Source: an uncultured Patescibacteria group bacterium (lineage in GTDB: Bacteria > Patescibacteriota > Patescibacteriia > UBA2591 > CALHIP01). From it: DNA of 64,000 nucleotides. The stretch is from NCBI GenBank assembly GCA_938030745.1, contig CALHIP010000001.1, positions 3,817 through 67,816 of the forward strand, read 5' to 3'. Shown here one piece after another: positions 2,293-17,909 of this stretch; the first letter of the stretch is position 1; every line of letters starts with the position of its first letter. Position numbers and translations under genes: made by a program. The notes below the pieces were generated by a model. It saw only the letters and a list, made by a program, of their open reading frames with translations, had not been told where the DNA came from and did no database searches.

Positions 2293-2359
2293 AATGAAAA
2301 TTATAAGGCGCTATAATAAAAAGGCCTTATTAAAAATTATAAACAAAAAACAAGGAATG

Positions 2360-3163
2360 TCAATTAATCATTTGTAAGTCTTTTTTAATCTGTTCTTTTA
2401 GCTGAAGTAGACTTTTAAATTTCTTAACCTCTCTAATTTTTTTAACAACCTTAATTTCTATTTCTTTTTGATAAAGATTACCTGAGAAATCTTTGATAAA
2501 AATTTCTAAAGATGGTCCCTCATTGAAAGTTTCTTTGTAACCAAAATGAAGTAGGCCTTGATATATTTTGTCATTAATTTTTGTCTGAACTAGATAAACG
2601 CCGTGAGGTATATCTAAATCTTTTTTATCTAAGTTGGCTGTTGGAAAGCCAAGTAATCTACCTCGTTTAACCCCGGCAATGACTTTAGCAACAAAAGTAG
2701 TCTCTTTTGCCTGGCCTTCGCTGACCACTTTATAAAAACAAAGTAACAAAATCAGAGAAGCAATGATCTGGATACTATTTAAAACATTCTTGTTCAAAAT
2801 ATAATCTAAAACAACGGCGGAGAGGGGCCAAAATAATTCGCAAATTGTTGAAACTGAAGCTGTTACTCTTTTTAAACCAAAATAATAGAGAAACATTGCT
2901 GTTGCACCACTGGTAAAAACAATAACAATAAAAAGTTTCCATTGGAAACCGCTGATTTGAGGAATTTTAAAAAATTCACCAGTTAACAAAACCAAAATGA
3001 GCATTATTAAACTGGTAATACCAAATCTTAAAGCAGTAGTTGATTTGAAATCTAAGTGATTAACAATTCTTTTGCCAAAAACTGTTGACGAACCGAAAGC
3101 AAAAGCAGCTAAAAAAGCAAAAAAAGCAGCGTGATGGAATAAATCAATCTCTGAAGGATTCAA
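2360..3163 (-). CDS. Riboflavin kinase domain (C-terminal) fused to the C-terminal half of an EamA/DMT-type membrane transporter; 3' part of a frameshift-split gene
   Basis: C-terminus reads AKVIAGVKRGRLLGFPTANLDKK...GLLHFGYKETFNEGPSLEIFIKDF, the riboflavin kinase (RibF C-domain) signature. The N-terminal part is polytopic membrane. The reading frame stays open upstream of the annotated start and joins the next ORF after one frame change near 3235. Confidence 0.7.
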   Translation of the reverse strand: MNPSEIDLFHHAAFFAFLAAFAFGSSTVFGKRIVNHLDFKSTTALRFGITSLIMLILVLLTGEFFKIPQISGFQWKLFIVIVFTSGATAMFLYYFGLKRVTASVSTICELFWPLSAVVLDYILNKNVLNSIQIIASLILLLCFYKVVSEGQAKETTFVAKVIAGVKRGRLLGFPTANLDKKDLDIPHGVYLVQTKINDKIYQGLLHFGYKETFNEGPSLEIFIKDFSGNLYQKEIEIKVVKKIREVKKFKSLLQLKEQIKKDLQMIN

Positions 3164-3170
3164 ACCACTC

Positions 3171-3623
3171 TTACCAAATGCCAGAAAATAAGAAGCGACA
3201 ATTGCTAGAACCGCCCAGAAATAAAATTTCCGGCTTTAATTTTTCCTTTAAAATCAACCGGGCTAAAATTAAAGCAAAAACTGGCTGAAGTTTTTGTAAA
3301 ATAATGACTGTAGCAAAAGTCACTTCGCCATGAACAGCAGCAAAAAAAGCTTTGGTAATTGTAATTGTACCAATTGCTCCACCAAATAAACAGACCCAAA
3401 AAACTGCTTCCCAATCTTTTAAACTTAACTTTTGAATTTTGAACCAGCCCAAAAACAAAAAAGGACTCAAAACTAGAAAACCAAAAAAATGTTCCAGAAA
3501 AACTACTAAATTAGCTGGCAATTCATAAAATTTCGGCCTAATGAAAGTGCCATCCAAACTCCAAAACAAAGCAGCCAGCATAATCGCCAGTGCACCGATA
3601 ATAATTTTTTTATCAATTGTCAT
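3171..3623 (-). CDS. EamA/DMT-family transporter, N-terminal half (5' part of the frameshifted EamA-riboflavin kinase gene)
   Basis: 150 aa with TM helices. The EamA-like repeat continues in the other frame as FWAVLAIVASYFLAFGKSGLNPSEIDLF..., which joins ORF 2360..3163. Confidence 0.55.
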   Translation of the reverse strand: MTIDKKIIIGALAIMLAALFWSLDGTFIRPKFYELPANLVVFLEHFFGFLVLSPFLFLGWFKIQKLSLKDWEAVFWVCLFGGAIGTITITKAFFAAVHGEVTFATVIILQKLQPVFALILARLILKEKLKPEILFLGGSSNCRFLFSGIW

Positions 3624-5077
3624 TTTATCTTTCTTATAACCCCCTTATTGGCATCTACCTCAACCAAATCTCCATCTTTTAGGACTTTGGTAGCAATTTT
3701 TGTGCCAATAATACAGGGAATATTAAGTTCACGAGAAACAATGGCAGTATGAGATAAGAATCCACCCTCGTCAGTAATAATTGCGGCTGCTTTTTGCATT
3801 GCCGGAACAAAAGTAGGATTTGTCATCGGTGTGACTAAAATCTCTCCTTTTAAAAATTTAGAAACTTCTTTGGTTTCTTTCAGTATGTGAACCTTACCTT
3901 TAATGATTCCGCCTGGGCAGGCTACCATACCTCGGAGTTCTGTAATTGGAACACTGATCTCTTTAATTTTTTCTTCCTGATAATATTTTTTTAATTCTTT
4001 ACCACTTAAAACCTCTGATTCACCATTGCTAAAAATAATAGCATGATCCTTTATTCTTTTTTGTACTTCTTTTCTAGGAATAACCAATTTATTTTTCTCT
4101 AAACTGCTAATTATTTCTGATAATCGAAGTGAAACAACCCCTTCATAGGAAATTTTTAACCTCTTAGCAATTTCATCAAACAATCCTTTTAAATGATAAA
4201 TATAGTAATTGGTTGCTTCATTAGCAAAATTCATCGCATAAGAAGCCTTTTTCATTGCTTTTATTATTTTTTTCTCGTAATTGCTAAAACCATAGATAGC
4301 TAAATTAATTTTTTTAGTTTTTATCTTTTTTATCTCGTTTTTAATATATTCTTGTCCTTGTTTTATTATTTCTTTCACCCTTTTCTCTATTTCTTGAAAT
4401 GTATAACCTTCGCCCCAAAAATAATATTTATTGACAAAAGCATATTTCTTTAAATGATCAAAAAGGCGTTTTTTTAGAATTTTCTTATTCTTTATACAAT
4501 CATTAGCTATTCGTAATAAATTAAGCCTTTCTTTTCCAACCATGGTTATTTTCTCAGGTTTAGAGATAAATTCTATTATTTCGTTTAAATTTTTTTTATA
4601 TTTATCTTTTAATTTATTAATGAAATCCCTAATAAAAATATCGTTGAAGAAAAAATAATAAGCATACGGGATTCCGCCGCCCCAAAGTTTCGATTGCAAG
4701 TCTGTCATTTCTTCTAAAATTTTCGCCAACTCTCTATTGGTTAATTTTTCCCATTTCTTTTTTCTTAGTTTATTAGTTTTTTCAATTATCTTATTAGCTA
4801 TTTTTTCCATTCTTTGCCCATAAAAATAAAAATAATCCGGTTTTTTCTTGTGGATCTTGCTTAATAAATTGATTAAATTTTGGTAATCATCTTCTCCAAG
4901 ATGGCGAGCGCCATTAAATTGACGATAATTTTTTATTTTATAATCTATGCCGTAGATTATCTTGGCATAATTTTTTTTAATTCCCAATCCAACTCCATCA
5001 ACGTATAATAAAGCATGATTTTTGCCTCGCCGAGCAACCGGAATCCATTTTATTTTTCTTTTTATCATATTTTGCAT
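3620..5077 (-). CDS. PEP-utilizing-enzyme mobile (phosphohistidine swivel) domain protein with divergent N-terminal domain of about 390 aa; no ATP-grasp domain (paralog 1)
   Basis: C-terminus reads AIITDEGGFLSHTAIVSRELNIPCIIGTKIATKVLKDGDLVEVDANKGVIRKIK. This is the PEP-utilizers phosphohistidine motif with the catalytic His. The N-terminal domain is weakly homologous along its whole length to the other paralogs. Confidence 0.75.
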   Translation of the reverse strand: MQNMIKRKIKWIPVARRGKNHALLYVDGVGLGIKKNYAKIIYGIDYKIKNYRQFNGARHLGEDDYQNLINLLSKIHKKKPDYFYFYGQRMEKIANKIIEKTNKLRKKKWEKLTNRELAKILEEMTDLQSKLWGGGIPYAYYFFFNDIFIRDFINKLKDKYKKNLNEIIEFISKPEKITMVGKERLNLLRIANDCIKNKKILKKRLFDHLKKYAFVNKYYFWGEGYTFQEIEKRVKEIIKQGQEYIKNEIKKIKTKKINLAIYGFSNYEKKIIKAMKKASYAMNFANEATNYYIYHLKGLFDEIAKRLKISYEGVVSLRLSEIISSLEKNKLVIPRKEVQKRIKDHAIIFSNGESEVLSGKELKKYYQEEKIKEISVPITELRGMVACPGGIIKGKVHILKETKEVSKFLKGEILVTPMTNPTFVPAMQKAAAIITDEGGFLSHTAIVSRELNIPCIIGTKIATKVLKDGDLVEVDANKGVIRKIK

Positions 5078-5252
5078 CTTTTAAAATTAATCTTGTTTAC
5101 TATTCTTTTGATAAAAATTTCTAAAGATAGTGCTTCATTGAAAATTTTTTATAACCAAGTTAGATAGTGTTTAAAACATTTTTATTTAAATAATCTAAAA
5201 CAATAACTGAAAAGCTATAATAATTTATAAATTGTTAAAACTCAAGTTGTTT

Positions 5253-6743
5253 CTAACCAGCCTGTTTTATTTTTCTTACCACCCCTTTATCTGCATCAAC
5301 TTCAACCAAATCTCCATCTTTTAGGACTTTGGTAGCAATTTTTGTACCGATAATGCAGGGAATCTTTAGTTCTCTGGCGAGGATAGCAGCATGGCAGATA
5401 ATGCCGCCCTCGTCAGTAACAATGGCTTTTATCTTTTTTACATAAAGAGATATTTCTGGAGTAGTCATGGAAATGACCAATATCCTATTTGGTTTAATCT
5501 TTTTGTATTGATAAACACTATGAAGAATTTGAACCGGACCACAAACTTTACCTGGAAAAGCTACCATTCCTTCAATCTTTTTTAACTTTTGATATTCCTT
5601 TGGCACTTTTTCTAATTTTTTCAAAGCTTTTCCAGTGTAGATTTTAAGTCTACCTTTTATAAACACATATCCATAACCCTTTTTCCTTTCTTGAATATCT
5701 TTTTTTGTGCCTTTATCTTTTAATATTTCATTAATGGTCAACTCAATTATCTCATCGTAATTTAATTTTCTTCGCCGAGCAATCTCAGCTAACAAAGGTT
5801 TTAAGTAATAATGGGCTATACTCAAATCTTCTATTCTGGTTTGTCGCCAGAGGGTGGTTTCTTGAAGAGATCTCACATAGATAAAAAAATAAGAAGGAAG
5901 ATTTAATTTTTTAAGTTGAGTTATTATTTTTTTAAAATTAGCCTTTTCTTTTTGATAATCAGCTATTAAAACTTTTAAAGTTTTATTTGGATTGTTTTTT
6001 AAAGCTTCTTTTAGTTCGAAAATAACATCATTTAAGGTATATTCTTTAGCATTTAGAAGATAACTTCCTCTCCACTGGTATTTTTTTTGAAAAACTAAAA
6101 TTTTGGAAAAAAGTTTTTTTGAAATTCTTTTTAAAATTTCTTTGACATCTTTTTTTATAAAAATTTTTTTTATTTTTCTCTTTTTATTAATTTGACAAGC
6201 TAATTTAAGGAGTTCCTTTTTGAATTTTAAGTTACGGCTCGGCCGAGGTAAGATATTAAGACGATAAATAATTTCAGTTATTTCACTTTGACTTTTTTTA
6301 TTTTTTAACATCTTTTCTAATTTTTCTATAAGAATTTCTTCAAATAGCCAAGGAGTATAGATATAATTCCAGGCTGGTAAATAAATCTCTAATAATTTAA
6401 CAAACAGAGTTTTCAACTGTTTGGTTGTCATTTTTTTAAGATCCATCTGACTAATTTTTTTACCAGCCATTATCATTTTTTTGTTTTGGAAATTTTGATT
6501 TTTGATTGCATCAATTAAAACCCAGGCCGATTTTTTTAGTTTCTTTAAATAGTAATTTTTTGCTTTTTTAAAATCTGATTCTGCCAAAAAAGTGTTTCCT
6601 CCTATTCTTTTATAAAAAGAAAAATCAGGACAGCCTTGAACTCTCCGAGTATATTTAGTTATGGAAGTATTTACTATATCAGTAACTAATAAAGGGTGTC
6701 TTCCTCTTCCTACAATTTTTCTCCATTTGATTTTTTCTGTCAT
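5253..6743 (-). CDS. PEP-utilizing-enzyme swivel domain protein, paralog 2
   Basis: C-terminus reads AIVTDEGGIICHAAILARELKIPCIIGTKIATKVLKDGDLVEVDADKGVVRKIK. The N-terminal domain is divergent but alignable with 3620..5077. Confidence 0.75.
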   Translation of the reverse strand: MTEKIKWRKIVGRGRHPLLVTDIVNTSITKYTRRVQGCPDFSFYKRIGGNTFLAESDFKKAKNYYLKKLKKSAWVLIDAIKNQNFQNKKMIMAGKKISQMDLKKMTTKQLKTLFVKLLEIYLPAWNYIYTPWLFEEILIEKLEKMLKNKKSQSEITEIIYRLNILPRPSRNLKFKKELLKLACQINKKRKIKKIFIKKDVKEILKRISKKLFSKILVFQKKYQWRGSYLLNAKEYTLNDVIFELKEALKNNPNKTLKVLIADYQKEKANFKKIITQLKKLNLPSYFFIYVRSLQETTLWRQTRIEDLSIAHYYLKPLLAEIARRRKLNYDEIIELTINEILKDKGTKKDIQERKKGYGYVFIKGRLKIYTGKALKKLEKVPKEYQKLKKIEGMVAFPGKVCGPVQILHSVYQYKKIKPNRILVISMTTPEISLYVKKIKAIVTDEGGIICHAAILARELKIPCIIGTKIATKVLKDGDLVEVDADKGVVRKIKQAG

Positions 6744-6823
6744 AAATTAAAAATATTTTTATAAAGTAGCAATTGATCTCGATTCAACAATATAAATTTT
6801 TTTCTTTATTATCTAATTATTTA

Positions 6824-7597
6824 TTATGATTTTAATTTTTTAACTACTCCCTTATTTGCATCAACCTCAATCAGATCTCCATCTTTAATTAATTTTGTCG
6901 CATTTTTTGTTCCAATCACACACGGCTTTTTCATCTCTCGAGCTACTATAGCCGCATGAGAAGTAATTCCTCCTTCGTCTGTCACAAAGCCAGCAGCTTT
7001 TTGCATAGCAATAATTAAATCGGGGTTAGTAGCTCGACTAACTAAAATTTCCCCCTTCTTAATCTTTCCTATATCTTCTTTAAGATTAATAATTCGAGCT
7101 ACTCCTTTTACTTTACCTGGATAAGCACAATTTCCCTTTATCTGGGTTGTTTGGATTTCTGGTTTTTCTCTAATTAATTTTAAATATTTTTTACTTTCTT
7201 TTAAAGATAAGATTCTTATTTTCTTATCCACTGTCAACGAAACGCATCCTTTTTTAAGACGATTTTTTATCATCGATTTTATTTTTTTATTTAATAATTT
7301 TTTGTTCAACAGATATTTTTTTATTTCTTCTAAAGTAATAAATCTTGTTTCTGGTAAAGAAAATCCTAATCGTCTTCCAATTTCTTTTAAAATTGGTTCA
7401 AAACAAAAATTAGAATAAATCAAAAATTCCTTTCGGTAAGCTTTAAGAAAAATCATCGATGCTATTTTATTAAGTAATGATATATTTTCTTTCTTTAATT
7501 TTAACTTACCTTTCAAAGTCCTTTTCTGTTGACTAATAATTTTTTTATAATTTTTAATTTCTTTTATTTTCTCTTCCGGATTTTTAATTAATTTCAA
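6824..7597 (-). pseudogene. PEP-utilizing swivel domain paralog 3, C-terminal part of a frameshift-split gene (6824..8318)
   Basis: C-terminus reads GFVTDEGGITSHAAIVAREMKKPCVIGTKNATKLIKDGDLIEVDANKGVVKKLKS. The ORF is only 257 aa. Upstream ORF 7701..8318 is in another frame and looks like the N-terminal domain of the paralogs. The two together are about 496 aa. A T7 homopolymer at 7671-7681 sits in the gap. Confidence 0.6.
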
Positions 7598-7700
7598 ATT
7601 ATTTTTTAAAATTTGAACGATATCATTTTTACTCCAGGCCGGACCAATATAATAATAAGAAAGCCAACCATATTTTTTTACATGTCTTTCGATAAGTTGA

Positions 7701-8318
7701 TTAATTTTTTTTGTTTTTCCACCAATTTTTATTTTTTAACTTTTGAATTAAAACCTGAATTTTATATAAATCTAATTCATGCTTACGTTGATAAGTTATT
7801 TGCGTTGGAGTTGTTAGTTTACTAATATATTCTTTAATTTTGGGATTTGGTCCAATTTGTTTTTCAATTTCTTTTTCGGCAATTTCAAAAATAGATTTAC
7901 TTCCCATATCAACAAAATTTGGAATCCAAGCATAGATCCTTAGGGCCAGTGTTTTTTCAATAAATTTATTATAAATTTTTATTAATTGTCGATCGTTTAA
8001 AATCTCAGGGTTAATTTTTTTTAATTGGTCTGAAAATTTCTTTAAATTTCTACACTCTTTTATCATTTCTTTTTTAACTTTTTTATGAAATAAATTATCT
8101 TCGATTAACTTTTTTTGAGTAAAATCACACATCCTTTGCCAAGATTTTTTATCAACATACATTTTTATATTAGTCCCTCGATAAATACTTATAATTCTTT
8201 TACAGGCTATACCCAACAATTTTTTCACCGAATGAGTAGCGGCCAAATCCATTAAGAAAATAGGGAAAAAACTTGTCTGTTGACCTTCGAATATTTTTAT
8301 TAGAGAGTTTTTCTTCAT
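7701..8318 (-). pseudogene. N-terminal part of split swivel-domain paralog 3
   Basis: 205 aa, K-rich. It occupies the position and has the composition of the paralog N-terminal domains. It ends about 100 bp before the 6824..7597 ORF in a different frame. Confidence 0.5.
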
Positions 8319-8322
8319 AAAT

Positions 8323-9846
8323 TTATTCTCTTTTTAAAATTTTAACTCGATTGTGATTTGTGTTTATCTCTATTAAATCGTTATCGTGAAGGACCTTAGT
8401 TGCAACTTTAGTAGCAATGATGCAAGGAATCCCAAGTTCACGAGCAACAATTGCTGCATGGCAAGTAATTCCACCTTCGTCAGTAACAATACCTGCTGCT
8501 TTTTTAATAAATGGCATCCAATGAGGTCGAGTCATTCCAGTGACTAAAATATCTCCTTTTTTAATTTTATAACCATCTTTAATATCTTTAACAATTTTTG
8601 CTTTACCAATTACTACTCCAGAAGAGGCACTAACTCCTTTTATTTCACCAATTAATTTTTTCTTTTCTCCTAAAAATTCTTGATGCCATTTTTCGGCTTC
8701 TTTACCAACTAAAATCTTATATCTATTTGGCCAAATTAAATAAGCACAACACTTCATTCTTTGATGAATTAATTTTTTATCAAATTTCTTTTTCAAAAGC
8801 ATTTCTTCAATTTTGTGATGATCGGTATAATACATTTCTTGAAGTGATAAACCTAATCTTTTGCCGATTTCTTTTAAAACAATTGTAATGTAATAATTTG
8901 CTTCATTCATTACTGCTTTTCTTTGATCATGAAGATAACCAAAAAATTCTATCCATTTTAAAAGTCTTTTTGTTTCATTGTCTAATTTCAATTTTTTAAT
9001 TAAATTTTTCTTTTTTCGTTGATAATTTTTAACAACATTTTTCAGTTCCTTTATTTTCTTCTCTAAATCAATATTTTCCTTAAAGTAGCGTTGGATTTTT
9101 TTTAAGAAATAATCTACAGATAATTTAATACCTTGAGCATAACTATTTTTAATCCAGAAAAATTTTTCTTGATGTTCTTGGATAGATGACCAAATTAAAG
9201 ATTTTTTAATTAACTTTTTTGCTTTTTTATAATCCTTCTTTAAAATTTCAGCTAATTTTTTGTTTTTCTTTATCTTTTTAGCTATTTCTAAAAGATTTAA
9301 TTCCTCTTCGTTGGCCCAAGATCTCTTTTTGGGAAAAGTTAAAATTTCTAAATATTGAGCAAATTTTCTCGGTTGATCAATTTTTTCTAAATATTTTTTC
9401 AATTTTTCAGTAATAATTTTTTCTGTATGAAGTCCAAACGGATCACATAATAAAGCTGGAGAATATTCTTCTTGATAAAGATTGATTAATTTTCGGAAAG
9501 TTTTTGCCAATTCTTGATCAGAAAGTTTTCTCAGACTAATTTTTGAAATTTTTCTTTCAAAGTTTTTTAATCTTTTAACCCTCTTTTTCCATAATTTTTC
9601 AAGATTTTTTAGAAAATTTGGTTCTTTCTTTATTCTTCTAATAATTGCTTTTGCCTGTTTGTGAATATCTGGCCAAAGATAGCCAAAATAATTAATCCGA
9701 CCATGAGCATTAACACCTGGAGAAAATGGCTTTTCCATACCTTTGCCGAAATCTTTTAAAGTGTTAACGGTTTCTGCTTCAGCTGCAATAAAAGAAAGAA
9801 GTAATACTCCATCCATTCTTTGAACAAAATATTTTGGTTCTTTCAT
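8323..9846 (-). CDS. PEP-utilizing-enzyme swivel domain protein, paralog 4
   Basis: C-terminus reads GIVTDEGGITCHAAIVARELGIPCIIATKVATKVLHDNDLIEINTNHNRVKILKRE. 507 aa. Its 3' end has diverged at the nucleotide level from the other copies. Confidence 0.75.
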   Translation of the reverse strand: MKEPKYFVQRMDGVLLLSFIAAEAETVNTLKDFGKGMEKPFSPGVNAHGRINYFGYLWPDIHKQAKAIIRRIKKEPNFLKNLEKLWKKRVKRLKNFERKISKISLRKLSDQELAKTFRKLINLYQEEYSPALLCDPFGLHTEKIITEKLKKYLEKIDQPRKFAQYLEILTFPKKRSWANEEELNLLEIAKKIKKNKKLAEILKKDYKKAKKLIKKSLIWSSIQEHQEKFFWIKNSYAQGIKLSVDYFLKKIQRYFKENIDLEKKIKELKNVVKNYQRKKKNLIKKLKLDNETKRLLKWIEFFGYLHDQRKAVMNEANYYITIVLKEIGKRLGLSLQEMYYTDHHKIEEMLLKKKFDKKLIHQRMKCCAYLIWPNRYKILVGKEAEKWHQEFLGEKKKLIGEIKGVSASSGVVIGKAKIVKDIKDGYKIKKGDILVTGMTRPHWMPFIKKAAGIVTDEGGITCHAAIVARELGIPCIIATKVATKVLHDNDLIEINTNHNRVKILKRE

Positions 9847-9860
9847 AATTGTTTAAAAAC

Positions 9861-10487
9861 TTAAGTTATTATAGATTTTTTTAATTTTTTTTCATTTTTT
9901 ATTATATCGTAGAGACTGCCTATTTCCCAATAATTATTTTTTTTACGAATACCAAGGTCATCATTCTTAATATGATAAACTCTTATTTTAAGATTTTCAA
10001 TACTTTGAGCGGCATTAAGAAAAAATAGACAATTTTCTAATTTATCGTCAGTATAAACAATTTCTTTATATCCTTCTTTTACTTTGTCTTCTAAAATTTT
10101 TGTAATCATTTCCTTAGTCTTTTTATTTGTATTACCAAAATCAAAGGTGCTAATAATTTCTTTAAAATAAGGTCTAATATCAAATAATCCTTTTTTTAAA
10201 AAATATTCAGCCCGCCAATCAATTTGTTCTTTATTACCGGTAGTAAAAACAATGTTATTTTTTGTCCAAGACAAAACTTTTTTAAAACCTTTAGCAATTT
10301 TTAACTTAAAGAGACCTTCTCTGTAAGGTCTTTCATAGGCTCGTTCATAATCAAGTGGCGAAATAGTTTTTAAATCATAACCAAGTGATTCAACATATTG
10401 ATCATAATTTTCAAAACCAGTACTTTTATCCCATTCTTCAGGAAACAAAGTATTAGCCAAATCCCAAATGTACAATCTCTTACTCAT
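9861..10487 (-). CDS. HAD-superfamily-like hydrolase (variant motif I), hypothetical
   Basis: N-terminal LYIWDLANTLF resembles HAD motif I (FDLDNTL) with the second Asp replaced by Ala. FTTGN fits motif II and VYTDDKLEN fits motif IV. The assignment is tentative. Confidence 0.35.
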   Translation of the reverse strand: MSKRLYIWDLANTLFPEEWDKSTGFENYDQYVESLGYDLKTISPLDYERAYERPYREGLFKLKIAKGFKKVLSWTKNNIVFTTGNKEQIDWRAEYFLKKGLFDIRPYFKEIISTFDFGNTNKKTKEMITKILEDKVKEGYKEIVYTDDKLENCLFFLNAAQSIENLKIRVYHIKNDDLGIRKKNNYWEIGSLYDIIKNEKKLKKSIIT

Positions 10488-10537: not shown

Positions 10538-10637
10538 TTATTTTAATTTTTTAACTACTCCCTTATTTGCATCAACTTCAACCAAATCTCCATCTTTTAG
10601 GACTTTTGTAGCAATTTTTGTAAAGATTTTTAAAAAG
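10538..10637 (-). pseudogene. Orphan 3'-terminal remnant of a swivel-domain paralog fused behind the ATP-grasp gene
   Basis: 10549-10625 is nearly identical at the nucleotide level to the last ~80 bp of paralogs 3620, 5253 and 12133. It encodes ...TKIATKVLKDGDLVEVDANKGVVKKLK. There is no upstream swivel domain. Confidence 0.6.
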
Positions 10638-11579
10638 CTATAACGTAGTGATCGGTCTTGACTGAACGATGTAGAATTTCTTTTTTTCATAAGCCCACTC
10701 AATATCGCAAGGAAAACCATAATGATCTTCAATTTCTTGACAGATCTTTGCTAACTCTAAAATTTTTTGATTTGGTAAACATTGTTTACTGGCAATCTTT
10801 TTTGGTACTTTAACAATCTTTGTTTTAGCGCCAACCCTAATTATTTTTGTTCTTTGCTCATTAATATTAATATCTATAATTTTCGGCTCTTTCCCTTTTT
10901 CTATAACATAAGTATCAGGAGTAACTTGACCAGAAACAACTGATTCACCCAATCCCCAACTTGCTTCAATAACCATCTGAGTTTGGTCACGAGTAACTGG
11001 ATGAACGGTAAAAGCTACACCAGCTACCTCTGATTCAACCATTTTTTGGACAACAACCGCCACTGAAACTTGTTTGCCATGCAATTTTTTTTCAATCCGA
11101 TAAAAAATTGCTCTTGGTGTAAAAAGTGATGACCAACATTTTTTAACTGTTTCAACAACCTTTTTTCGATCAACTCCTAAATAACTTTCTAATTCACCAG
11201 CCCAGGAAGCAACTCTTGAATCTTCAGCGGTAGCAGACGAACGAACAGCTACATACTTAGCGGATAGTTTATCAAAAGCAGATAAAATTTCTTTTTGAAT
11301 ATCTTTTGGTACTTCATATTGACTAATTATTCCCCTTAAAAATTTTGAAACTTTTTCTACGGTAGAAACTTTTTTAGGATTAACCTTCTTTAGTTGAGCA
11401 TCAATTTCAACATCGATATGATAATTTCTAATAAAATCTTCAAAAGCTTGACTTAAAACAACAAAACCTGGTGGAACAGGAATACCAACTTTAGTCATTT
11501 CTCCCAAAGAAGCTCCTTTCCCACCGGCAATTTTTATATCTTTCATATCCAATTCCTCAAATTTTTTTATAAATTTCAT
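10638..11579 (-). CDS. Stand-alone PPDK_N-type ATP-grasp nucleotide-binding domain protein (PEP synthase / rifampin-phosphotransferase N-domain family)
   Basis: MKFIKKFEELDMKDIKIAGGKGASLGEMTKVGIPVPPGFVVLS...VAVRSSATAEDSRVASWAGE...FPCDIEWAYEKKKFYIVQSRPIT. This aligns with the N-domain of the ppsA at 15510..17909. It stops after the ATP-grasp domain at 313 aa. Confidence 0.8.
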   Translation of the reverse strand: MKFIKKFEELDMKDIKIAGGKGASLGEMTKVGIPVPPGFVVLSQAFEDFIRNYHIDVEIDAQLKKVNPKKVSTVEKVSKFLRGIISQYEVPKDIQKEILSAFDKLSAKYVAVRSSATAEDSRVASWAGELESYLGVDRKKVVETVKKCWSSLFTPRAIFYRIEKKLHGKQVSVAVVVQKMVESEVAGVAFTVHPVTRDQTQMVIEASWGLGESVVSGQVTPDTYVIEKGKEPKIIDININEQRTKIIRVGAKTKIVKVPKKIASKQCLPNQKILELAKICQEIEDHYGFPCDIEWAYEKKKFYIVQSRPITTL

Positions 11580-12132
11580 AGTTTAAATTTAATTATTTTC
11601 GGCAAAATTTTTTTCTTTAATCTAGCAATCAATTATTTATTAAGATTTAATTCTAGTAAGGGTTTGACTGATTTAATCAAAATTTTTAAATCATTATTTA
11701 GAGATTTTAGATCATATCTCGACAATTTCCCGATACTTCTGCCAATTAATCAAATCATTTTTCAATAAGGTACAATAAACCCTTCTCGACTTTTTGGTAT
11801 ATTTTTTAATTTTTTCTACTGAATGAAAATTTATGAAAATAATTTTTCTCTAAGGGTTACTAAAAATCTTTAGCATACCATTCAGTTAAATTCCAAAGAT
11901 CAATATAAAAATGTTTAAAAACTTTTTCTCCATCAATAACTTAAAAACCCTTCTTCTCACCTCTATAGCTACTGTTTGGCGAGGAATTTTTGAGCTAATT
12001 CCTTATTTTCTATTATATTCGAAACAAAATTCTCAGTCAAGCTTTGATATTTTTCTTATTACAAATAAAAGTTGGTAGACAATTTTCCTAAAAAAGCAAA
12101 TATATATGTCGGCTTTTTGTATAGATCAAGAG

Positions 12133-13599
12133 TCATCTTTTTTTTATAATCTTCACCACTCCCTTATTCGCATCAACCTCAACCAAATCTCCATCTTTTA
12201 AAACTTCAGTGGCAATTTTTGTGCCAATAATACAGGGTTTGTTTAATTCTCTTGAGACAATGGAAGCATGGGAAGTTATACCTCCTTCATTAGTAACAAA
12301 AGCAGAGGCGCGTTTCATAATCGGAACAAAATCAACTGAAGTCATTGTTGTAACAATAATATCACCATCTTTAAATTTATGAAAATCTGAACTTCCTAGA
12401 ATAATTTTAGCGATTCCTTTCACTTTTCCTTTATTAGCAATCATACCTTTTATTTCTTTTACTTTGATTACTTTTTCTTTTTTAGGAATCACTATCTCTT
12501 TTAAAAATAATTTAACAATTTTTGGAGGAAGTAATCTAAAACCTTGTTTATTATTTGCATATTCTAAACCGGTAACCTTTCTCTTTGGTAAAACCTTTAA
12601 AACCTTTTTATCATTTTTGTAATATAATTTTTCAATCTCTGCTGGAGTTAATTTCCAAATCTCTTTCCATGATGATAAATTAAATTTATGAGCAATTTCT
12701 TGAAAAAGGGGTCGATAGGCTAAACTGGCTCGAGAAAAAACATTTTTTCGCCACTCATTAAGGTATGTTCCTATTTGAAGGGATAAGGCAATCTGAAGAA
12801 TTCTTGGATTATTGATTTTCTTTAAAATTTTATTTCGTTCTTTAATTTTTATTTGATGTGATTTTAGTAAAATTTTTATCTCTTTTTGACAATTAATTTT
12901 AAGAATTTCTTTAATTTGAGAAAAAATATCATCAATACTCCATGGCTCTTCATTGAAATTTACTGGGATATGACTATATTTTCTTCTATAAAGTTCAACC
13001 ATTTCATTAATTTTTTCATTTTCTTTAAAATTCTTGATCTCATTTTCTTGAATATATCTACCAATTTTGAGTAAAGAAAGTTGAGAATTAAAAAGAGGCG
13101 TGCGTTCTTTGGGATAAGTAATTTTACTTGCTATAAATTCAATCTCTTGTTTATTTTTTAAAGGATAGAGTTTTGCAAGTTCTTCAATTAAGAGTTCGTG
13201 CATTATTCTTCCTAGAGTAGCAGTTAAGGGTAAAGAAGGTGTAAATTTTTCGTATGCTTCTATAAATTCACGATAAGTTTTTAAAGAAAAATCTTTCTCA
13301 ATTTTTTTAGATGCTTCAAGTAATTTATTACCATAATTTTTATATATTTTTTTGAGACTTTTTATTCTAGGTGAAAGACAAAGTTGAGTAACGCTATTTC
13401 CAAAATTTCTCAATATTTCTTCATTGTTAAAAATTGTTGTCCGAGTACCATTTTCAGTAATAATTGGAATTTGATAGCGAGGGGAAACGCCGAAATTTTT
13501 TGCATATCTAACAACACCCATTGTCTCACAACAATCATGAAAAAATGACATATTCCGAGTGACAAAAACTTCCCAATTTTTGTTTTTATATCTAATCAT
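12133..13599 (-). CDS. PEP-utilizing-enzyme swivel domain protein, paralog 5
   Basis: C-terminus reads AFVTNEGGITSHASIVSRELNKPCIIGTKIATEVLKDGDLVEVDANKGVVKIIKKR. 488 aa with a divergent N-terminal domain. Confidence 0.75.
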   Translation of the reverse strand: MIRYKNKNWEVFVTRNMSFFHDCCETMGVVRYAKNFGVSPRYQIPIITENGTRTTIFNNEEILRNFGNSVTQLCLSPRIKSLKKIYKNYGNKLLEASKKIEKDFSLKTYREFIEAYEKFTPSLPLTATLGRIMHELLIEELAKLYPLKNKQEIEFIASKITYPKERTPLFNSQLSLLKIGRYIQENEIKNFKENEKINEMVELYRRKYSHIPVNFNEEPWSIDDIFSQIKEILKINCQKEIKILLKSHQIKIKERNKILKKINNPRILQIALSLQIGTYLNEWRKNVFSRASLAYRPLFQEIAHKFNLSSWKEIWKLTPAEIEKLYYKNDKKVLKVLPKRKVTGLEYANNKQGFRLLPPKIVKLFLKEIVIPKKEKVIKVKEIKGMIANKGKVKGIAKIILGSSDFHKFKDGDIIVTTMTSVDFVPIMKRASAFVTNEGGITSHASIVSRELNKPCIIGTKIATEVLKDGDLVEVDANKGVVKIIKKR

Positions 13600-13809
13600 A
13601 AGGTTGCAATTGATCGGCTTTGAACTATGTAAAGCTTATTCTTTTCCAAGGCCAATTCGATGTCTTAAGGTAATTTATAATGTTTTTCTATTTTTTCACA
13701 CAAATTAGACGATTCTAAGATTTTTTCATTACTTAAGACCTGTTTTGGTTGAAGTTTTAGTACCGCTAATGTCTTTGTTGTATCGACAAATTCTCTTAAT
13801 CATTGTTTT

Positions 13810-14340
13810 CTAGATGTTAACATTAATATCAATAATTTTGTTTTTTTTATCAACCACGTAAGTATCTGGCGTTACCTTACCTGCTACCACATTCTCTTCT
13901 AACTCACGGTTTGCCTCAATCACAAGTTGGTTCTTATCTTTGGTTACTGAAACTACGCCAGCAACTTCGCTTTCAATCAGTTTTTGAACTAATACTGCCA
14001 CTTCACCGGCCCAGGAAGCTAATTTTGAATCTTCAGCTGTGGCCGAGCTTCTTACTACCACATACCTTGCCTTTAATTGATCAAATCATTCCAAAATTTC
14101 TTTCTTTATATTTTTGCTGCTAAAATAAGATTTCTGATCAGTTTAGAAGTCATTTCTACTGTCGCAATTTCTTTTGGATTAACTTTCTTTATTAAGGCAT
14201 CAATCTCAACATTAATATCACTTTCTTTCAAAAACTTGACTTAAAACAACAAAACCTGGTGGAACAGGAATACCAACTTTAGTCATTTCTCCCAAAGAAG
14301 CTCCTTTCCCACCAGCAATTTTTATGTCCTTTTTTGTCAA
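13810..14340 (-). pseudogene. Decayed duplicate of the PPDK_N ATP-grasp domain gene
   Basis: 14225-14325 is nearly identical to 11440-11540, the 5' end of gene 10638..11579. It reads KKFEELTKKDIKIAGGKGASLGEMTKVGIPVPPGFVVLSQVFE, but the start ATG is changed to ACA, there is an in-frame stop soon after, and there are further frameshifts. Fragment 13810..14061 still encodes VRSSATAEDSKLASWAGE. Confidence 0.7.
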
Positions 14341-14368
14341 CTCTTCAAATTTTTTAAATTTTTAAAAA

Positions 14369-14968
14369 TTAAAGAATAATAACTTGAGAAATATTACCCA
14401 CCAATTCTTTGAATTTTTCTGGATCACCTGAAATTTCGGAAAAAGTGCCGTAGTGCATGGGGATGACTTTTTTTGGTTTAATCATTTTAACTGCTTCAGC
14501 AGCCTCTTCTTCATTCATTGTATAAGTGCCACCGATCGGTAAAAGAGCTAAATCAATTTCACCTAATTCAGCCATCTCTTTAATTTTGTCAGTATCACCG
14601 GCATGATAAATTTTTTTACCAGAAATTTCTAAAACGAAACCAACACCTTTACCTTTCGGATGAAATGGCTTAGCCAAATTATAGGCTGGAACAGCTTTTA
14701 TCTTTATTCCATTGACTTCTTTTTCTTCACCTTCTTTGATATTTTCACCACCTACTAAAACTTCAGTTTCTGTTTTTGAAAGAATCTCAATTGACTTCTC
14801 ATCTTTATGATCGAAATGATCGTGAGTAACCAAAATCAAATCTGCTTTCTCGCCAAAAGAGAGATTATAAGGATCAACATAAATGACTATTTGTGGAGTT
14901 TTAATCTTAAAACTTGCATGACCTAACCAGGAAATTTCCAAATTGTCTAAATTAATTGTTTTAGCCAT
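14369..14968 (-). CDS. Metallo-beta-lactamase-fold metal-dependent hydrolase (UPF0173-like)
   Basis: LGHASFKIKT...ILVTHDHFDH is the HxHxDH motif. 199 aa. Confidence 0.7.
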   Translation of the reverse strand: MAKTINLDNLEISWLGHASFKIKTPQIVIYVDPYNLSFGEKADLILVTHDHFDHKDEKSIEILSKTETEVLVGGENIKEGEEKEVNGIKIKAVPAYNLAKPFHPKGKGVGFVLEISGKKIYHAGDTDKIKEMAELGEIDLALLPIGGTYTMNEEEAAEAVKMIKPKKVIPMHYGTFSEISGDPEKFKELVGNISQVIIL

Positions 14969-14992: not shown

Positions 14993-15077
14993 CGGAGGGT
15001 GTGGGAATCGAACCCACAAACCCCTTTCGGGGTCCACGCTCTCCAGGCGTGTGCCTTACCATTCGGCGCAACCCTCC
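14993..15077 (-). tRNA. tRNA-Ser (anticodon GGA)
   Basis: Reverse complement reads GGAGGGTTGCGCCGAATGGTAAGGCACACGCCTGGAGAGCGTGGACCCCGAAAGGGGTTTGTGGGTTCGATTCCCACACCCTCCG. Cloverleaf with a long variable arm and anticodon loop CTGGAGA. CCA is not encoded. Confidence 0.85.
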
Positions 15078-15509: not shown

Positions 15510-17909
15510 TTATCTCATAATTTCCTCCTTTTTATTTTTTTCTGTTTTTAAAACTTCAAGGGTGGTCTTTAACACTGTATCTGGATTTAAGGAAATTGAA
15601 TCAATTCCTTCTCTCACTAAAAATTTAGCAAAATCAGGAAAATCAGATGGTGCTTGACCACAAATACCAACTTTTCGGCCATATCGATGAGCAGTTTTAA
15701 TTAACTGACGAATAAGTTTTTTAATTGCCTCATTTCTTTCATCAAAAAGATGAGCCACCAGTTCTGAGTCACGATCAAGACCAAAAGTAAGTTGAGTTAA
15801 ATCATTTGAACCAATTGAAAAACCATCAAAAATTTTTGAAAATTCTTCAGCTAAAATAATATTTGAAGGAATCTCTGCCATCACATAAATTCGAAGCGGT
15901 CTTAAATTTTTTATTTTTTTTCTTAAGCCAAATGAATCAATAATTTTAATTACCATTTTTCCTTCTTCTGGTGTCCGGCAAAATGGGATCATCACTATCA
16001 CATTATCTAAGCCAAAAACTTCGCGAACTTTTTTAATAGCCAAACATTCCAACCCAAATGCTTCTTTAAACTTTTCATCATAATATCTCGAAGCACCGCG
16101 CCAACCAATCATTGGATTTGCCTCTTTTGGTTCATATTGGCTACCGCCAATTAAATTAGCATACTCATTGGTTTTAAAATCGGAAAATCGAACAATTACA
16201 TCTTTAGGATAAAAAGCAGAAGCAATTTTGCCAATACCTTCAGCCAATTTGTCAACAAAAAATTGTTTTTTATCTTGATAACCAAAAGTTAATCTATCAA
16301 TTTGTTTTTTTATCTCCTTTGGTTGTTTTTTATAATTAATTAAAGCTAAAGGATGGATTTTGATTTGATTAGCAATGATAAATTCCTCGCGGGCTAAACC
16401 AACTCCATCATTTGGAATAAAAGAAAGAGAAAAAGCCTGATCTGGTTCACCTAAATTCATCATTATTTTCGTTTTTGGTCTTTTAAACTTAGCTAAATCT
16501 ATCTTTTTGATCTTAAATGGAAGAATCCCTTGATAAACAAAACCTTTTTCACCTTCGGCACAAGAAACAGTTACTTCTTGGCCATTTTTTAAAACTTTCG
16601 TTGCTTTCATTGTTCCTACTACACATGGAACACCAATTTCACGGGAAACAATTGCAGCATGAGAAGTCCTTCCTCCAGTATCGGTAATAATTGCTGAAGC
16701 TATTCTCATAATTGGTTCAAAATCAGGGTTGGTTGTTTGAGCAACTAAGACTTCTTTTTCTTTAAAATTGACAAGGTCTTTTATCCTTTTTATTACCCGA
16801 ACTCTTCCTTGGCCAATTTTTGAACCAATAGCTAAACCTTCAAGTAATACCTTCCCTTTTTTCTTTAAAATATATTCTTCTAAAAAATCAATTTTTTTTC
16901 TTGAAACAACTGTTTCTGGTCTAGCTTGCAAAATATAAAGTTTTTTATCTTTACCATCTTTTGCCCATTCAATATCCATTGGCCGTTTATAATGATCTTC
17001 AATTAAGCAAGACCAGCGAGCAAGAGTTAAAATTTCATCTTCTGTTAAAGCAAATTTCCTTTGTTCTTTTTTAAAAACAGGAACATTTTTTGTCCCTTCT
17101 TTTTTATCATAAATTAATTTTTTTTCTTTTTTTCCTATTCTTTTCTCAATGATTGGTCTAAATCCTTTTTTTAAAGTTTTTTCAAAAACATAGTATTGAT
17201 CAGGTTCAACTCTTCCTTTAACCACATTTTCTCCAAGACCATAGGAAGCGTTAATCAAAACAACATCAGCAAAACCAGTTTCGGTATCGCAAGAAAACAT
17301 TACTCCAGAAGAAGCTAGATCAGAACGAACCATCTTTTGAATACCAACTGATAAGGCAACTTTTAAATGATCAAAACCCATATTTTCTCGATAGGAAATA
17401 GCGCGATCAGTAAAAAGAGATGCTAAACACTTTTTAACGGCCGTCAAAAGTTGACTATCTCCTTTGACATTTAAAAATGATTCTTGTTGGCCAGCAAAAC
17501 TTGCCCTTGGTAAATCTTCAGCAGTAGCTGATGAGCGGACCGCTACATCTAAATTTTTTGTTTTATATTTATAAGATAATTTTCGATAAGCTTTAATTAC
17601 TTCTTTTTCTAAATCTTTTGGCAATTCTGTTTTTAAAATTAGATCTCGAATCTGTTTTGATTTTTCTTTTAACTCTTTTATATTTTTAACATTTAAATTT
17701 TTTAAAATTTCTTTAATTTTTTTCTTTAAACCGGTTTTCTCTAAAAATTGCCAATAAAAAAAAGAGGTGGTAGCAAAACCATCGGGAATATTAATTTTTT
17801 TTCCTAAAGCCTTGATCATTTCACCTAAAGAAGCATTCTTTCCGCCAACTAGAGGAACATCTTTAATACTTATCTCTTTAAACCAACAGATCAATTTTTT
17901 CATAATCAA
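15510..17909 (-). CDS. ppsA: Phosphoenolpyruvate synthase (pyruvate, water dikinase), full three-domain form
   Basis: 799 aa. N-terminal ATP-grasp (VAVRSSATAEDLPRASFAGQ), central swivel domain (TDTGGRTSHAAIVSREIGVPCVVG) and C-terminal PEP/pyruvate TIM-barrel domain. Confidence 0.85.
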   Translation of the reverse strand: MIMKKLICWFKEISIKDVPLVGGKNASLGEMIKALGKKINIPDGFATTSFFYWQFLEKTGLKKKIKEILKNLNVKNIKELKEKSKQIRDLILKTELPKDLEKEVIKAYRKLSYKYKTKNLDVAVRSSATAEDLPRASFAGQQESFLNVKGDSQLLTAVKKCLASLFTDRAISYRENMGFDHLKVALSVGIQKMVRSDLASSGVMFSCDTETGFADVVLINASYGLGENVVKGRVEPDQYYVFEKTLKKGFRPIIEKRIGKKEKKLIYDKKEGTKNVPVFKKEQRKFALTEDEILTLARWSCLIEDHYKRPMDIEWAKDGKDKKLYILQARPETVVSRKKIDFLEEYILKKKGKVLLEGLAIGSKIGQGRVRVIKRIKDLVNFKEKEVLVAQTTNPDFEPIMRIASAIITDTGGRTSHAAIVSREIGVPCVVGTMKATKVLKNGQEVTVSCAEGEKGFVYQGILPFKIKKIDLAKFKRPKTKIMMNLGEPDQAFSLSFIPNDGVGLAREEFIIANQIKIHPLALINYKKQPKEIKKQIDRLTFGYQDKKQFFVDKLAEGIGKIASAFYPKDVIVRFSDFKTNEYANLIGGSQYEPKEANPMIGWRGASRYYDEKFKEAFGLECLAIKKVREVFGLDNVIVMIPFCRTPEEGKMVIKIIDSFGLRKKIKNLRPLRIYVMAEIPSNIILAEEFSKIFDGFSIGSNDLTQLTFGLDRDSELVAHLFDERNEAIKKLIRQLIKTAHRYGRKVGICGQAPSDFPDFAKFLVREGIDSISLNPDTVLKTTLEVLKTEKNKKEEIMR

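What the first reader, a model, noticed from the sequence alone, without database searches (positions are those of the whole stretch)
10538..11579. ATP-grasp domain gene terminated right after the nucleotide-binding domain and followed by an orphan swivel-domain tail
- The 313-aa ORF contains a complete PPDK_N domain and then stops.
- About 15 bp downstream, in another frame, lies the final ~25-codon segment shared by all paralogs, with nothing of the ~450 preceding codons.
- This pattern implies an internal deletion or recombination within a formerly full-length ATP-grasp/substrate-binding/swivel gene (RPH-like).
- It is direct evidence of how the split architecture arose.
Basis: seen in the sequence. 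Interest (0 to 1): 0.55.

Follow-up and report, generated by a model that had tools for sequence, protein, structure and literature searches.

The report
Leftover gene tail beside kinase subunit
An intact, naturally stand-alone ATP-binding subunit gene of a two-part small-molecule kinase is followed by an 84-base leftover of a deleted neighbouring partner gene, which is ordinary gene loss in a fast-changing gene family and not a record of how the two-part design arose.

Summary
A 313-aa ORF (10638-11579, minus strand) is a complete PPDK_N ATP-grasp domain. Sixteen bases after its stop, in another frame, lie the last 27 codons plus stop of a swivel-domain gene (10538-10621). This relic is 84-90% identical in DNA to the 3' ends of four of the five paralogs in the window.

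The ORF was not cut short by this event:
- All 120 best homologs are stand-alone proteins of 305-350 aa.
- In 31 loci the gene stops at the same ...QSRPITTL* boundary.
- A decayed second copy in the window (13596-14361) stops at the homologous codon, and its TGA overlaps the ATG of the next gene.

The split into an ATP-grasp subunit and a substrate-binding/swivel subunit is therefore old and conserved in Patescibacteria. It matches the known two-component dikinases HpeHI, CreHI and PpsAB. What was deleted was a separate downstream partner gene of about 1.4 kb.

Close relatives show every state at that position: intact gene, broken gene, relic tail (a second case, L006) and nothing.

An assembly artefact is unlikely but could not be excluded at read level.

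Interest is low to moderate. The more notable feature is the array itself: one ATP-grasp gene with five diverged partner genes.

The parts
10638..11579 (-). Intact stand-alone ATP-grasp (PPDK_N) component gene, 313 aa. It corresponds to HpeI/PpsB of two-component small-molecule dikinases.
   Evidence: Pfam PF01326 E=5e-101. PDB matches: RPH 5fbs residues 4-316 and HpeI 9goj, E=3e-53. All 120 best homologs are 305-350 aa stand-alone proteins at 58-82% identity.
10622..10637 (-). 16-nt junction between the PPDK_N stop codon and the relic (CTTTTTAAAAATCTTT). This is the left breakpoint of the deletion.
   Evidence: No homology to paralog sequence upstream of their tails.
10538..10621 (-). Relic of the 3' end (27 codons plus TAA) of a deleted central+swivel (CS) partner gene. 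It has no start codon and no catalytic histidine, and it is out of frame with the upstream ORF.
   Evidence: blastn 84-90% identity to four paralog tails, E=7e-27 to 7e-21. tblastn with L001 CS475 residues 447-475 gives 79%. The relic is a mosaic: its 5' 54 nt match the CS496 tail (53/54), and its 3' end is identical to the tail of 6824-7597.
13596..14361 (-). Decayed second copy of the ATP-grasp gene (pseudogene). Its TGA overlaps the ATG of 12133-13599 in an ATGA overlap.
   Evidence: blastn 74% (14002-14361) and 66% (13611-13881) to the intact gene. blastx shows at least 3 frame changes, several in-frame stops, and 43- and 4-codon deletions. The junction is read. The independent Logan contig L076 matches at 99.86% with no gaps.
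12133..13599 (-). CS488: partner component with a central RPH-like substrate-binding domain and a C-terminal phosphohistidine swivel domain (TNEGGITSH).
   Evidence: PF00391 E=2e-24. AF2 model pLDDT 94. Foldseek top hits are rifampin phosphotransferase 5fbu/5fbt/5fbs, E=7e-15, TMq 0.55.
8323..9846 (-). CS507, a paralogous partner component.
   Evidence: PF00391. NCBIfam alignments cover PigC 451-881, RedH 412-878 and RPH 647-864.
6824..8318 (-). Paralogous partner gene. In the window it is split into 205-aa and 257-aa ORFs by one extra A in an A-run near 7705-7712. It is intact in an independent assembly.
   Evidence: Logan contig L077 has one A fewer and an open frame of at least 494 codons.
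5253..6743 (-). CS496, a paralogous partner component.
   Evidence: PF00391 E=2e-23.
3620..5077 (-). CS485, a paralogous partner component. It occupies the position just before the EamA/flavokinase gene that CS475 holds in L001.
   Evidence: PF00391 E=8e-26. Synteny is shown.
9861..10487 (-). 208-aa gene directly downstream of the relic. It is only weakly similar to the HAD-family gene embedded in the L001 array.
   Evidence: No Pfam or NCBIfam hit. tblastn with the L001 HAD protein gives 30% over 90 aa, E=0.003.
11580..12132 (.). 553-bp non-coding spacer between CS488 and the intact ATP-grasp gene, with one strong promoter-like site at 12040-12012 (-).
   Evidence: TTGACT-17-TATAAT, 11/12. 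The total count of such sites is not above shuffles.

Best explanation
The 313-aa ORF is the intact ATP-binding (ATP-grasp) subunit of a two-component, RPH-type small-molecule dikinase. In Patescibacteria this enzyme is normally encoded as separate genes.

By analogy with RPH, PpsAB and HpeHI, the subunit presents ATP to the conserved histidine on the swivel domain of a separate ~490-aa partner (CS protein). The swivel then carries the phosphate to a substrate bound in the partner's variable central domain.

The gene ends at its native stop. The 84 bases that follow are the last 27 codons of a separate partner gene that once lay directly downstream, as it does in relatives. About 1.4 kb of that gene was deleted, from about its start codon to 27 codons before its stop.

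The remaining intact ATP-grasp gene presumably serves the five CS paralogs of the array in trans. The second ATP-grasp copy, upstream of CS488, has decayed.

Shown: domain identities, the conserved stop position, the reality of the relic, the pseudogene, and the states in relatives.
Inferred: enzymatic mechanism, trans-service of several partners, the ancestral gene order at this locus, and how the deletion happened.
For: 1. Native stop. All 120 best homologs are 305-350 aa with PF01326 only. 31 loci end QSRPITTL plus 0-2 aa and a stop. This is the domain boundary in RPH and PEP synthase structures.

2. The split predates the event. The pseudogene ends ..QSRSIATL* at the homologous codon with an ATGA overlap onto CS488. 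Its lesions are confirmed by an independent assembly.

3. The relic is real: E=7e-27 to paralog tails.

4. Ancestral adjacency. PPDK_N is followed directly by a CS gene in L001, L005, L011, L018, L023, L078 and L079.

5. A loss series occurs at that position in the closest clade:
- intact CS475 (L001)
- split CS with the catalytic His changed to Tyr (L005)
- relic tail (window, and L006 from another sample)
- nothing (L007/L008, L009)
L001 and L007 are 90% identical yet differ in this state.

6. Partner identity. The CS488 model (pLDDT 94) matches RPH over its full length. CS507 aligns to the PigC/RedH/RPH central+swivel regions. The T/SxxGGxxxH motif is present.

7. Two-component dikinases with this division of labour are characterised biochemically (PMC12167813).
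Against: - No read-level check of the junction was possible. The two independent Logan contigs stop short of it: they cover 14264-11508 and 10569-6836.
- The window contig carries at least one, probably two, single-base homopolymer errors, so its base-level accuracy is imperfect.
- The gene order of the array differs from every relative, so the exact ancestral arrangement at this locus is inferred.
- Trans-service of several partners by one ATP-grasp subunit is untested.
- Two relics starting within 6 nt of each other in the tail (window and L006) hint at a constraint or mechanism that simple random deletion does not explain.
Confidence: 0.8

Rival explanations
1. A fused ATP-grasp/central/swivel gene (RPH-like, ~810 aa) suffered an internal deletion that created the stand-alone ATP-grasp ORF and left the tail, thereby showing how the split architecture arose.
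For: - Fused ~800-830-aa relatives of the CS488 subfamily do exist in Patescibacteria: 16 of 120 hits carry PF01326+PF00391.
- The relic lies only 16 nt after the stop.
Against: - The stop is at the position shared by 31 stand-alone loci and 120 of 120 best homologs.
- Fused proteins carry a 15-30-aa linker after RPITTL that is absent here.
- The paralogous module in the same window already had separate, overlapping genes (ATGA) at the same codon.
- The pseudogene and the intact gene resemble stand-alone proteins more than the N-domains of fused ones (43-46% against 35-39%).
Confidence: 0.04
2. Assembly artefact. The contig mis-joins the end of the ATP-grasp gene to the repeated tail of another CS gene, and in the real genome a complete CS gene (or something else) follows.
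For: - The tail is a repeat: 53/54 and 33/33 nt are identical to two other tails.
- Independent Logan contigs break inside it, at 10569, and inside the 5' end of PPDK_N, at 11508.
- The contig has homopolymer indel errors.
- The mosaic tail could itself be a graph-walk chimera.
Against: - The left junction (10622-10637) is not inside any repeat, so a repeat-driven mis-join would not produce it.
- The whole relic plus spacer (~100 nt) is shorter than a typical read, so it should be spanned by single reads.
- An independent sample (L006, SRR22387781) shows the same kind of relic directly after its PPDK_N stop.
Confidence: 0.06
3. The tail is retained for a function. It might carry expression signals for the downstream gene, or serve as a homology tract for gene conversion or cassette shuffling among CS paralogs. 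It would then be more than neutral debris.
For: - Two probably independent relics (window and L006) begin within 6 nt of each other and keep an open 25-27-codon frame.
- Among the four similar paralogs, codon identity at conserved residues is higher in the tails than in the swivel core (65% against 42%, Fisher p=4e-5; pairs are not independent).
- The relic is a mosaic of two paralog tails (9:1 against 1:9 informative sites, p=0.001 before correcting for choice of breakpoint).
Against: - No promoter- or terminator-like site lies in the relic, and no Rfam match.
- Most relatives have no relic: 2 of about 29 distinct loci have one.
- Strong protein-level conservation of the tail plus AT-biased codon use explains much of the DNA identity.
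- The sample is only two relics.
Confidence: 0.1

Closest known systems
Two-component small-molecule dikinases: HpeHI (Rhodococcus), CreHI (Corynebacterium), phenylphosphate synthase PpsAB (Thauera) (PMC12167813)
   Same: - A separate ATP-grasp component (HpeI/PpsB; 9goj matches the 313-aa ORF at E=3e-53).
- A separate component with an RPH-like substrate-binding domain followed by a C-terminal His swivel domain carrying T/SxxGGxxxH.
- The genes are usually adjacent.
   Different: - The partners here are ~490 aa, not ~600 aa.
- One ATP-grasp gene accompanies five or more diverged partner paralogs (~30% identical to each other).
- The host is a Patescibacteria MAG with no aromatic-catabolism context.
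- Substrates are unknown and activity is untested.
Rifampin phosphotransferase RPH (Listeria RPH-Lm, PDB 5FBS/5FBT/5HV1; PMC4844700)
   Same: - The same three domains in the same order: ATP-grasp, central substrate-binding, His swivel.
- RPH is the best full-length structural match of CS488.
- The ORF aligns to RPH residues 4-316.
   Different: - RPH is one fused ~865-aa chain.
- NCBIfam RPH models score 273 against a cut-off of 999 for the ORF.
- There is no evidence for rifamycin as substrate.
Prodiginine ligases PigC/RedH/HapC
   Same: Fused ATP-grasp/central/swivel enzymes. CS507 aligns to PigC 451-881 and RedH 412-878.
   Different: They are fused. All scores are far below the equivalog cut-offs (103 against 1300). 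No prodiginine pathway genes are nearby.
PEP synthase PpsA (a bona fide copy lies in the window at 15510-17909)
   Same: Shares the ATP-grasp and swivel domains. The ORF is 42% identical to the N-domain of the window's PpsA.
   Different: PpsA has the order ATP-grasp, swivel, TIM-barrel PEP-binding domain (PF02896). The ORF scores 347 against a cut-off of 598 for the PpsA equivalog, whereas the 799-aa gene scores 1207.

Membership tests
PPDK_N ATP-grasp domain (PF01326) | Significant full-length match to the domain profile | tested here: met
   E=5e-101, 338.6 bits against a cut-off of 27, profile positions 2-311 of 328.
Two-component small-molecule dikinase (HpeHI/CreHI/PpsAB type) | ATP-grasp domain encoded as its own gene ending at the domain boundary | tested here: met
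   The ORF ends ...QSRPITTL*, as in 31 loci and 120 of 120 best homologs. It matches the HpeI structure 9goj.
Two-component small-molecule dikinase (HpeHI/CreHI/PpsAB type) | Separate partner with an RPH-like substrate-binding domain plus a C-terminal swivel domain carrying the catalytic His (T/SxxGGxxxH) | tested here: met
   CS488: PF00391, motif TNEGGITSH, AF2 model pLDDT 94 with RPH as the only full-length PDB match. CS507 aligns to the PigC/RedH/RPH central regions.
Two-component small-molecule dikinase (HpeHI/CreHI/PpsAB type) | Partner gene adjacent to the ATP-grasp gene | tested here: inconclusive
   In the window the adjacent partner is reduced to an 84-nt relic. Intact partners lie 0.55-7 kb away on the same strand. 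Adjacency holds in L001, L005, L011, L018, L023, L078 and L079.
Two-component small-molecule dikinase (HpeHI/CreHI/PpsAB type) | Both components required for ATP-dependent phosphorylation via a phosphohistidine, yielding AMP and Pi | not testable with these tools
   Needs enzyme assays.
Rifamycin-inactivating phosphotransferase RPH (NF041857 / NF000283) | Full-length match above the equivalog cut-off (single fused chain of ~865 aa) | tested here: not met
   ORF: 273.5 bits against 999, and 181.5 against 1700, N-terminal third only. CS proteins: 46-86 bits.
PEP synthase (NF005057 / TIGR01418) | Score above the equivalog cut-off, including the PEP-binding TIM barrel | tested here: not met
   ORF: 347 against 598. 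There is no PF02896. The true PpsA of the window is 15510-17909, at 1207 bits.
Gene relic (pseudogene fragment) of a CS paralog | Significant homology confined to a terminal fragment, with no start codon, no catalytic motif, and no conservation as an ORF in relatives | tested here: met
   84 nt at E=7e-27. The His motif is absent. The only other case (L006) has a different upstream frame that closes after 21 codons.

The most novel reading that the evidence does not exclude
In Patescibacteria a single conserved ATP-grasp subunit acts as a shared phosphoryl-donor hub for an array of five to eight rapidly diverging substrate-binding/swivel subunits. It is a one-to-many two-component dikinase system.

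The array is remodelled at gene boundaries by recombination or gene conversion in the highly conserved 3' tails. Orphan tails, the decayed second ATP-grasp copy, and positional replacement of partners between close genomes would be the footprints of that turnover.

The partners at the same syntenic position are ~30% identical, while the flanking genes are 65-83% identical.
Probability: 0.35. Interest if true: 0.6.

Novelty: new member of a known kind. Interest (0 to 1): 0.3.

Why it matters
For the finding as posed, the value is corrective. The relic documents loss of a partner gene, not the birth of the split architecture. An annotator should call the 313-aa ORF an intact ATP-grasp dikinase component rather than a truncated PEP synthase or RPH.

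More broadly, the locus shows that small-genome Patescibacteria keep large, fast-turning-over arrays of RPH-type partner genes around one ATP-grasp gene. If one subunit really charges many substrate-specific partners, this would be a modular way to phosphorylate many small molecules (antibiotics, host metabolites) with little coding cost. It would also extend the recently defined two-component dikinase subfamily well beyond aromatic catabolism.

Tried and rejected
- Exact-sequence look-up of the ORF's product found no record, so the source contig could not be re-fetched.
- The metagenome scan returned only distant relatives, at most 61% identity. The genome scan did not return the source genome.
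- Look-ups of CS488 and of the 208-aa neighbour gave Logan contigs that stop at 11508 and 10569, short of the junction.
- Rfam found only a tRNA at 14993-15077.
- The promoter/terminator scan gave counts no higher than shuffles, and nothing in the relic.
- I tested whether the pseudogene derives from a fused gene. It is closer to stand-alone proteins.
- I tested whether the window and L006 relics are one inherited event. The junctions and downstream genes differ, and the two are not sisters in a small NJ tree, so they are probably independent. The tree is too small to be firm.
- I considered frameshifting or read-through joining the ORF to the tail. I rejected it because the tail lacks the histidine, the alternative frame would destroy the conserved FYIVQSRPITTL end, and in L006 that frame closes 21 codons upstream.
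- Microhomology idea: the 10-mer ACAAAAATTG occurs at four tails and also at codons 6-9 of CS488 (13583), with only one other occurrence in 64 kb. A slip between such repeats would give the observed structure. However, the 16 nt left at the junction do not resemble a CS 5' end, so this remains a suggestion only.

Full report
**1. What is in the sequence**

All genes discussed are on the minus strand.

- ORF 10638-11579 encodes 313 aa. It is a complete PPDK_N ATP-grasp domain: PF01326, E=5e-101, profile positions 2-311 of 328.
[quoted passage not shown] It also aligns with PEP synthase 8a8e up to residue 362 and with 9goj at E=3e-53. 9GOJ is HpeI, the ATP-grasp component of a two-component kinase.
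- The ORF ends ...FYIVQSRPITTL, TAG at 10640-10638.
- Sixteen bases later (10637-10622), in a frame offset by one base, the sequence reads TKIATKVLKDGDLVEVDANKGVVKKLK* (10621-10538).
- blastn of this stretch within the window hits the 3' ends of four paralogs at 84-90% identity over 82-86 nt, E=7e-27 to 7e-21. The fifth paralog, 8323-9846, is much more diverged in the tail.

**2. The neighbourhood**

The window holds an array of ~490-aa proteins with a C-terminal PEP-utilizers swivel domain (PF00391) and no ATP-grasp domain: 3620-5077, 5253-6743, 8323-9846 and 12133-13599. I call these 'CS' proteins, for central+swivel.

A fifth member is 6824-8318, which the window splits into 205-aa and 257-aa ORFs. 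That split is a single extra A in an A-run near 7705-7712. An independent Logan assembly of run ERR9287632 (L077, identical to the window over 3.7 kb apart from that base) has one A fewer and an open frame.

CS identity was checked three ways:
- CS507 aligns with the central and swivel regions of PigC (451-881), RedH (412-878) and RPH (647-864).
- An AlphaFold model of CS488 built on 83 homologs has pLDDT 94.
- In the PDB that model matches over its full length only the RPH structures (5fbu/5fbt/5fbs, E=7e-15 to 2e-13, TMq about 0.55). All other hits cover just the swivel domain.

The swivel motif with the catalytic histidine (e.g. TNEGGITSH) is present in all five. A bona fide PEP synthase lies separately at 15510-17909 (1207 bits against a cut-off of 598).

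**3. The stop of the ORF is native, not the product of the deletion**

- All 120 best database homologs of the ORF (58-82% identity) are 305-350 aa with PF01326 only. Where named, they come from Patescibacteria MAGs.
- In the loci I fetched, 31 (about 29 distinct) carry a stand-alone gene that ends QSRPITTL followed by 0-2 residues and a stop.
- The window has a second, decayed copy of the ATP-grasp gene at 13596-14361. It is 66-74% identical in DNA to the intact one. It has at least three frame changes, several in-frame stops, and 43- and 4-codon deletions. The independent contig L076 confirms these lesions at 99.86% with no gaps.
- That pseudogene ends ..QSRSIATL* at the homologous codon, and its TGA overlaps the ATG of CS488 (TTATGATT, an ATGA overlap).

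The two-gene organisation, with the break exactly at this codon, therefore already existed in this gene family before either copy was damaged.

Fused ~800-830-aa proteins do exist among CS488 relatives: 16 of 120 hits. They carry a 15-30-residue linker after RPITTL. Both window copies resemble stand-alone proteins more than those fused N-domains (43-46% against 35-39%).

**4. What was deleted**

In relatives the ATP-grasp gene is most often followed directly by a CS gene: L001, L005, L011, L018, L023, L078 and L079.

The closest clade shows every state at that position:

| Locus | PPDK_N identity to window | State just downstream of PPDK_N |
|---|---|---|
| L001 | 79% | intact 475-aa CS gene |
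| L005 | 82% | CS gene split in two, catalytic His replaced by Tyr (GGITSYAAIV) |
| L006 (a different sample) | 77% | orphan tail (IIATKVLRDSDLVEVDANEGVVRKIK*) immediately after the TAA |
| L007/L008 | 76% | nothing |
| L009 | 81% | nothing |

L001 and L007 are 90% identical in the ATP-grasp protein yet differ in this state. The window and L006 are not sisters in a small NJ tree. Their junctions and downstream genes also differ, so the two relics are probably independent.

The simplest reading is repeated loss of a separate partner gene next to the ATP-grasp gene. In the window, the loss removed about 1.4 kb, from about the start codon to 27 codons before the stop.

**5. How the system most likely works (inference from characterised homologs)**

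In RPH, PpsAB and HpeHI the ATP-grasp domain or subunit presents ATP. The swivel histidine is pyrophosphorylated, then loses the gamma-phosphate. The swivel domain then delivers the beta-phosphate to a substrate bound in the central domain. In HpeHI the two functions sit on separate proteins, and both are required (PMC12167813).

The window fits this two-component scheme, with one intact ATP-grasp gene and five partners. The partners are only ~30% identical to each other. They are also only ~30% identical to the gene occupying the same syntenic position in L001, although the flanking genes are 65-83% identical.

The inference is that the single ATP-grasp subunit serves several partners in trans. 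This would also explain why the second ATP-grasp copy could decay. That inference is untested.

**6. Secondary observations on the tails**

- The relic is a mosaic. Its first 54 nt match the CS496 tail (53/54). From about GTTGATGCA onward it is identical to the tail of 6824-7597 as far as the last sense codon. At the sites where those two tails differ, the relic agrees 9:1 with CS496 to the left of the best breakpoint and 1:9 to the right (Fisher p=0.001, before correcting for the choice of breakpoint).
- Among the four similar paralogs, identical codons at conserved residues are more frequent in the tail (65%) than in the swivel core (42%).
- This suggests gene conversion among tails. Strong protein conservation across genomes, AT-biased codon use, or an assembly walk through repeats could contribute.
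- The 10-mer ACAAAAATTG occurs at four tails and at codons 6-9 of CS488. A slip between such repeats would give the observed structure, but the 16 nt left at the junction do not support this directly.

**7. Artefact check**

I could not inspect reads. Independent Logan contigs cover 14264-11508 and 10569-6836 and break at the repeats. The stretch 10570-11507, which includes the junction, therefore has no second assembly.

Three points argue against a mis-join:
- The left breakpoint is not in a repeat.
- The relic plus spacer is about 100 nt, which is shorter than a typical read.
- L006 shows the same phenomenon in another sample.

I put the artefact at about 6%.

**8. Verdict**

It says nothing about the origin of the split, which is ancient, conserved and already described for this enzyme family.

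The relic itself is ordinary gene decay. The more interesting feature, outside the finding as posed, is the one-to-many array of RPH-type partner genes and its rapid turnover in Patescibacteria.

Noticed in passing
window 13596-14361 (-): Decayed second copy of the stand-alone ATP-grasp gene, directly upstream of CS488 with an ATGA stop/start overlap. Together with the relic at 10538-10621 it looks like reciprocal decay of two ATP-grasp+CS modules: one kept the ATP-grasp gene, the other kept the partner.
   Followed up: yes
window 7705-7712 (A-run); L077 position ~2857: The window has A8 where an independent Logan assembly of ERR9287632 has A7. The extra A splits an otherwise intact ~498-aa CS gene (6824-8318) into 205-aa and 257-aa ORFs. 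This is likely a homopolymer error or a population variant.
   Followed up: yes
window 2360-3623 (-), indel near 3235-3245: The EamA-transporter/riboflavin-kinase fusion gene (425-431 aa in L001, L006 and L007) is split into 150-aa and 267-aa ORFs by a one-base difference in TTAAAGCC. This may be another assembly error.
   Followed up: partly
window 10538-10621 compared with 5265-5345 and 6824-6910: The relic is a mosaic of two paralog tails. Synonymous codon identity is higher in the tails than in the swivel core, which is suggestive of gene conversion among the 3' ends of otherwise ~30%-identical paralogs.
   Followed up: partly
window 13583, 12222, 10621, 5345, 3703 (-): The 10-mer ACAAAAATTG sits in four swivel tails and also at codons 6-9 of CS488. 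It has only one other occurrence in 64 kb (39728, +). It is a candidate microhomology for start-to-tail deletions.
   Followed up: partly
L005 3074-4495: In the closest relative (82%) the CS gene after the ATP-grasp gene is split (156 aa and 260 aa) and its catalytic histidine is replaced by tyrosine (GGITSYAAIV). This is an intermediate stage of partner-gene decay.
   Followed up: partly
L016 ~6000-9400, L021 ~1960-5800, L024; proteins P0129, P0137: Very long fused ORFs in which an ATP-grasp domain (or a CS-like N-terminal part) reads on through one swivel domain, a central domain and a second swivel domain. This two-swivel architecture was not examined further.
   Followed up: no
L001 13736-16684 compared with window 487-2292: The DnaG primase of the relative L001 is 982 aa with Hint/intein hits. 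The window's DnaG is 601 aa without them.
   Followed up: no
window 9861-10487 (-): A 208-aa gene embedded in the array has no family match. It is only weakly similar (30% over 90 aa) to the HAD-type hydrolase at the equivalent place in L001. A phosphatase inside a kinase array would be worth a look.
   Followed up: partly
window 14993-15077 (-): A tRNA gene lies between the metallo-beta-lactamase-fold gene (14369-14968) and the PEP synthase gene.
   Followed up: no
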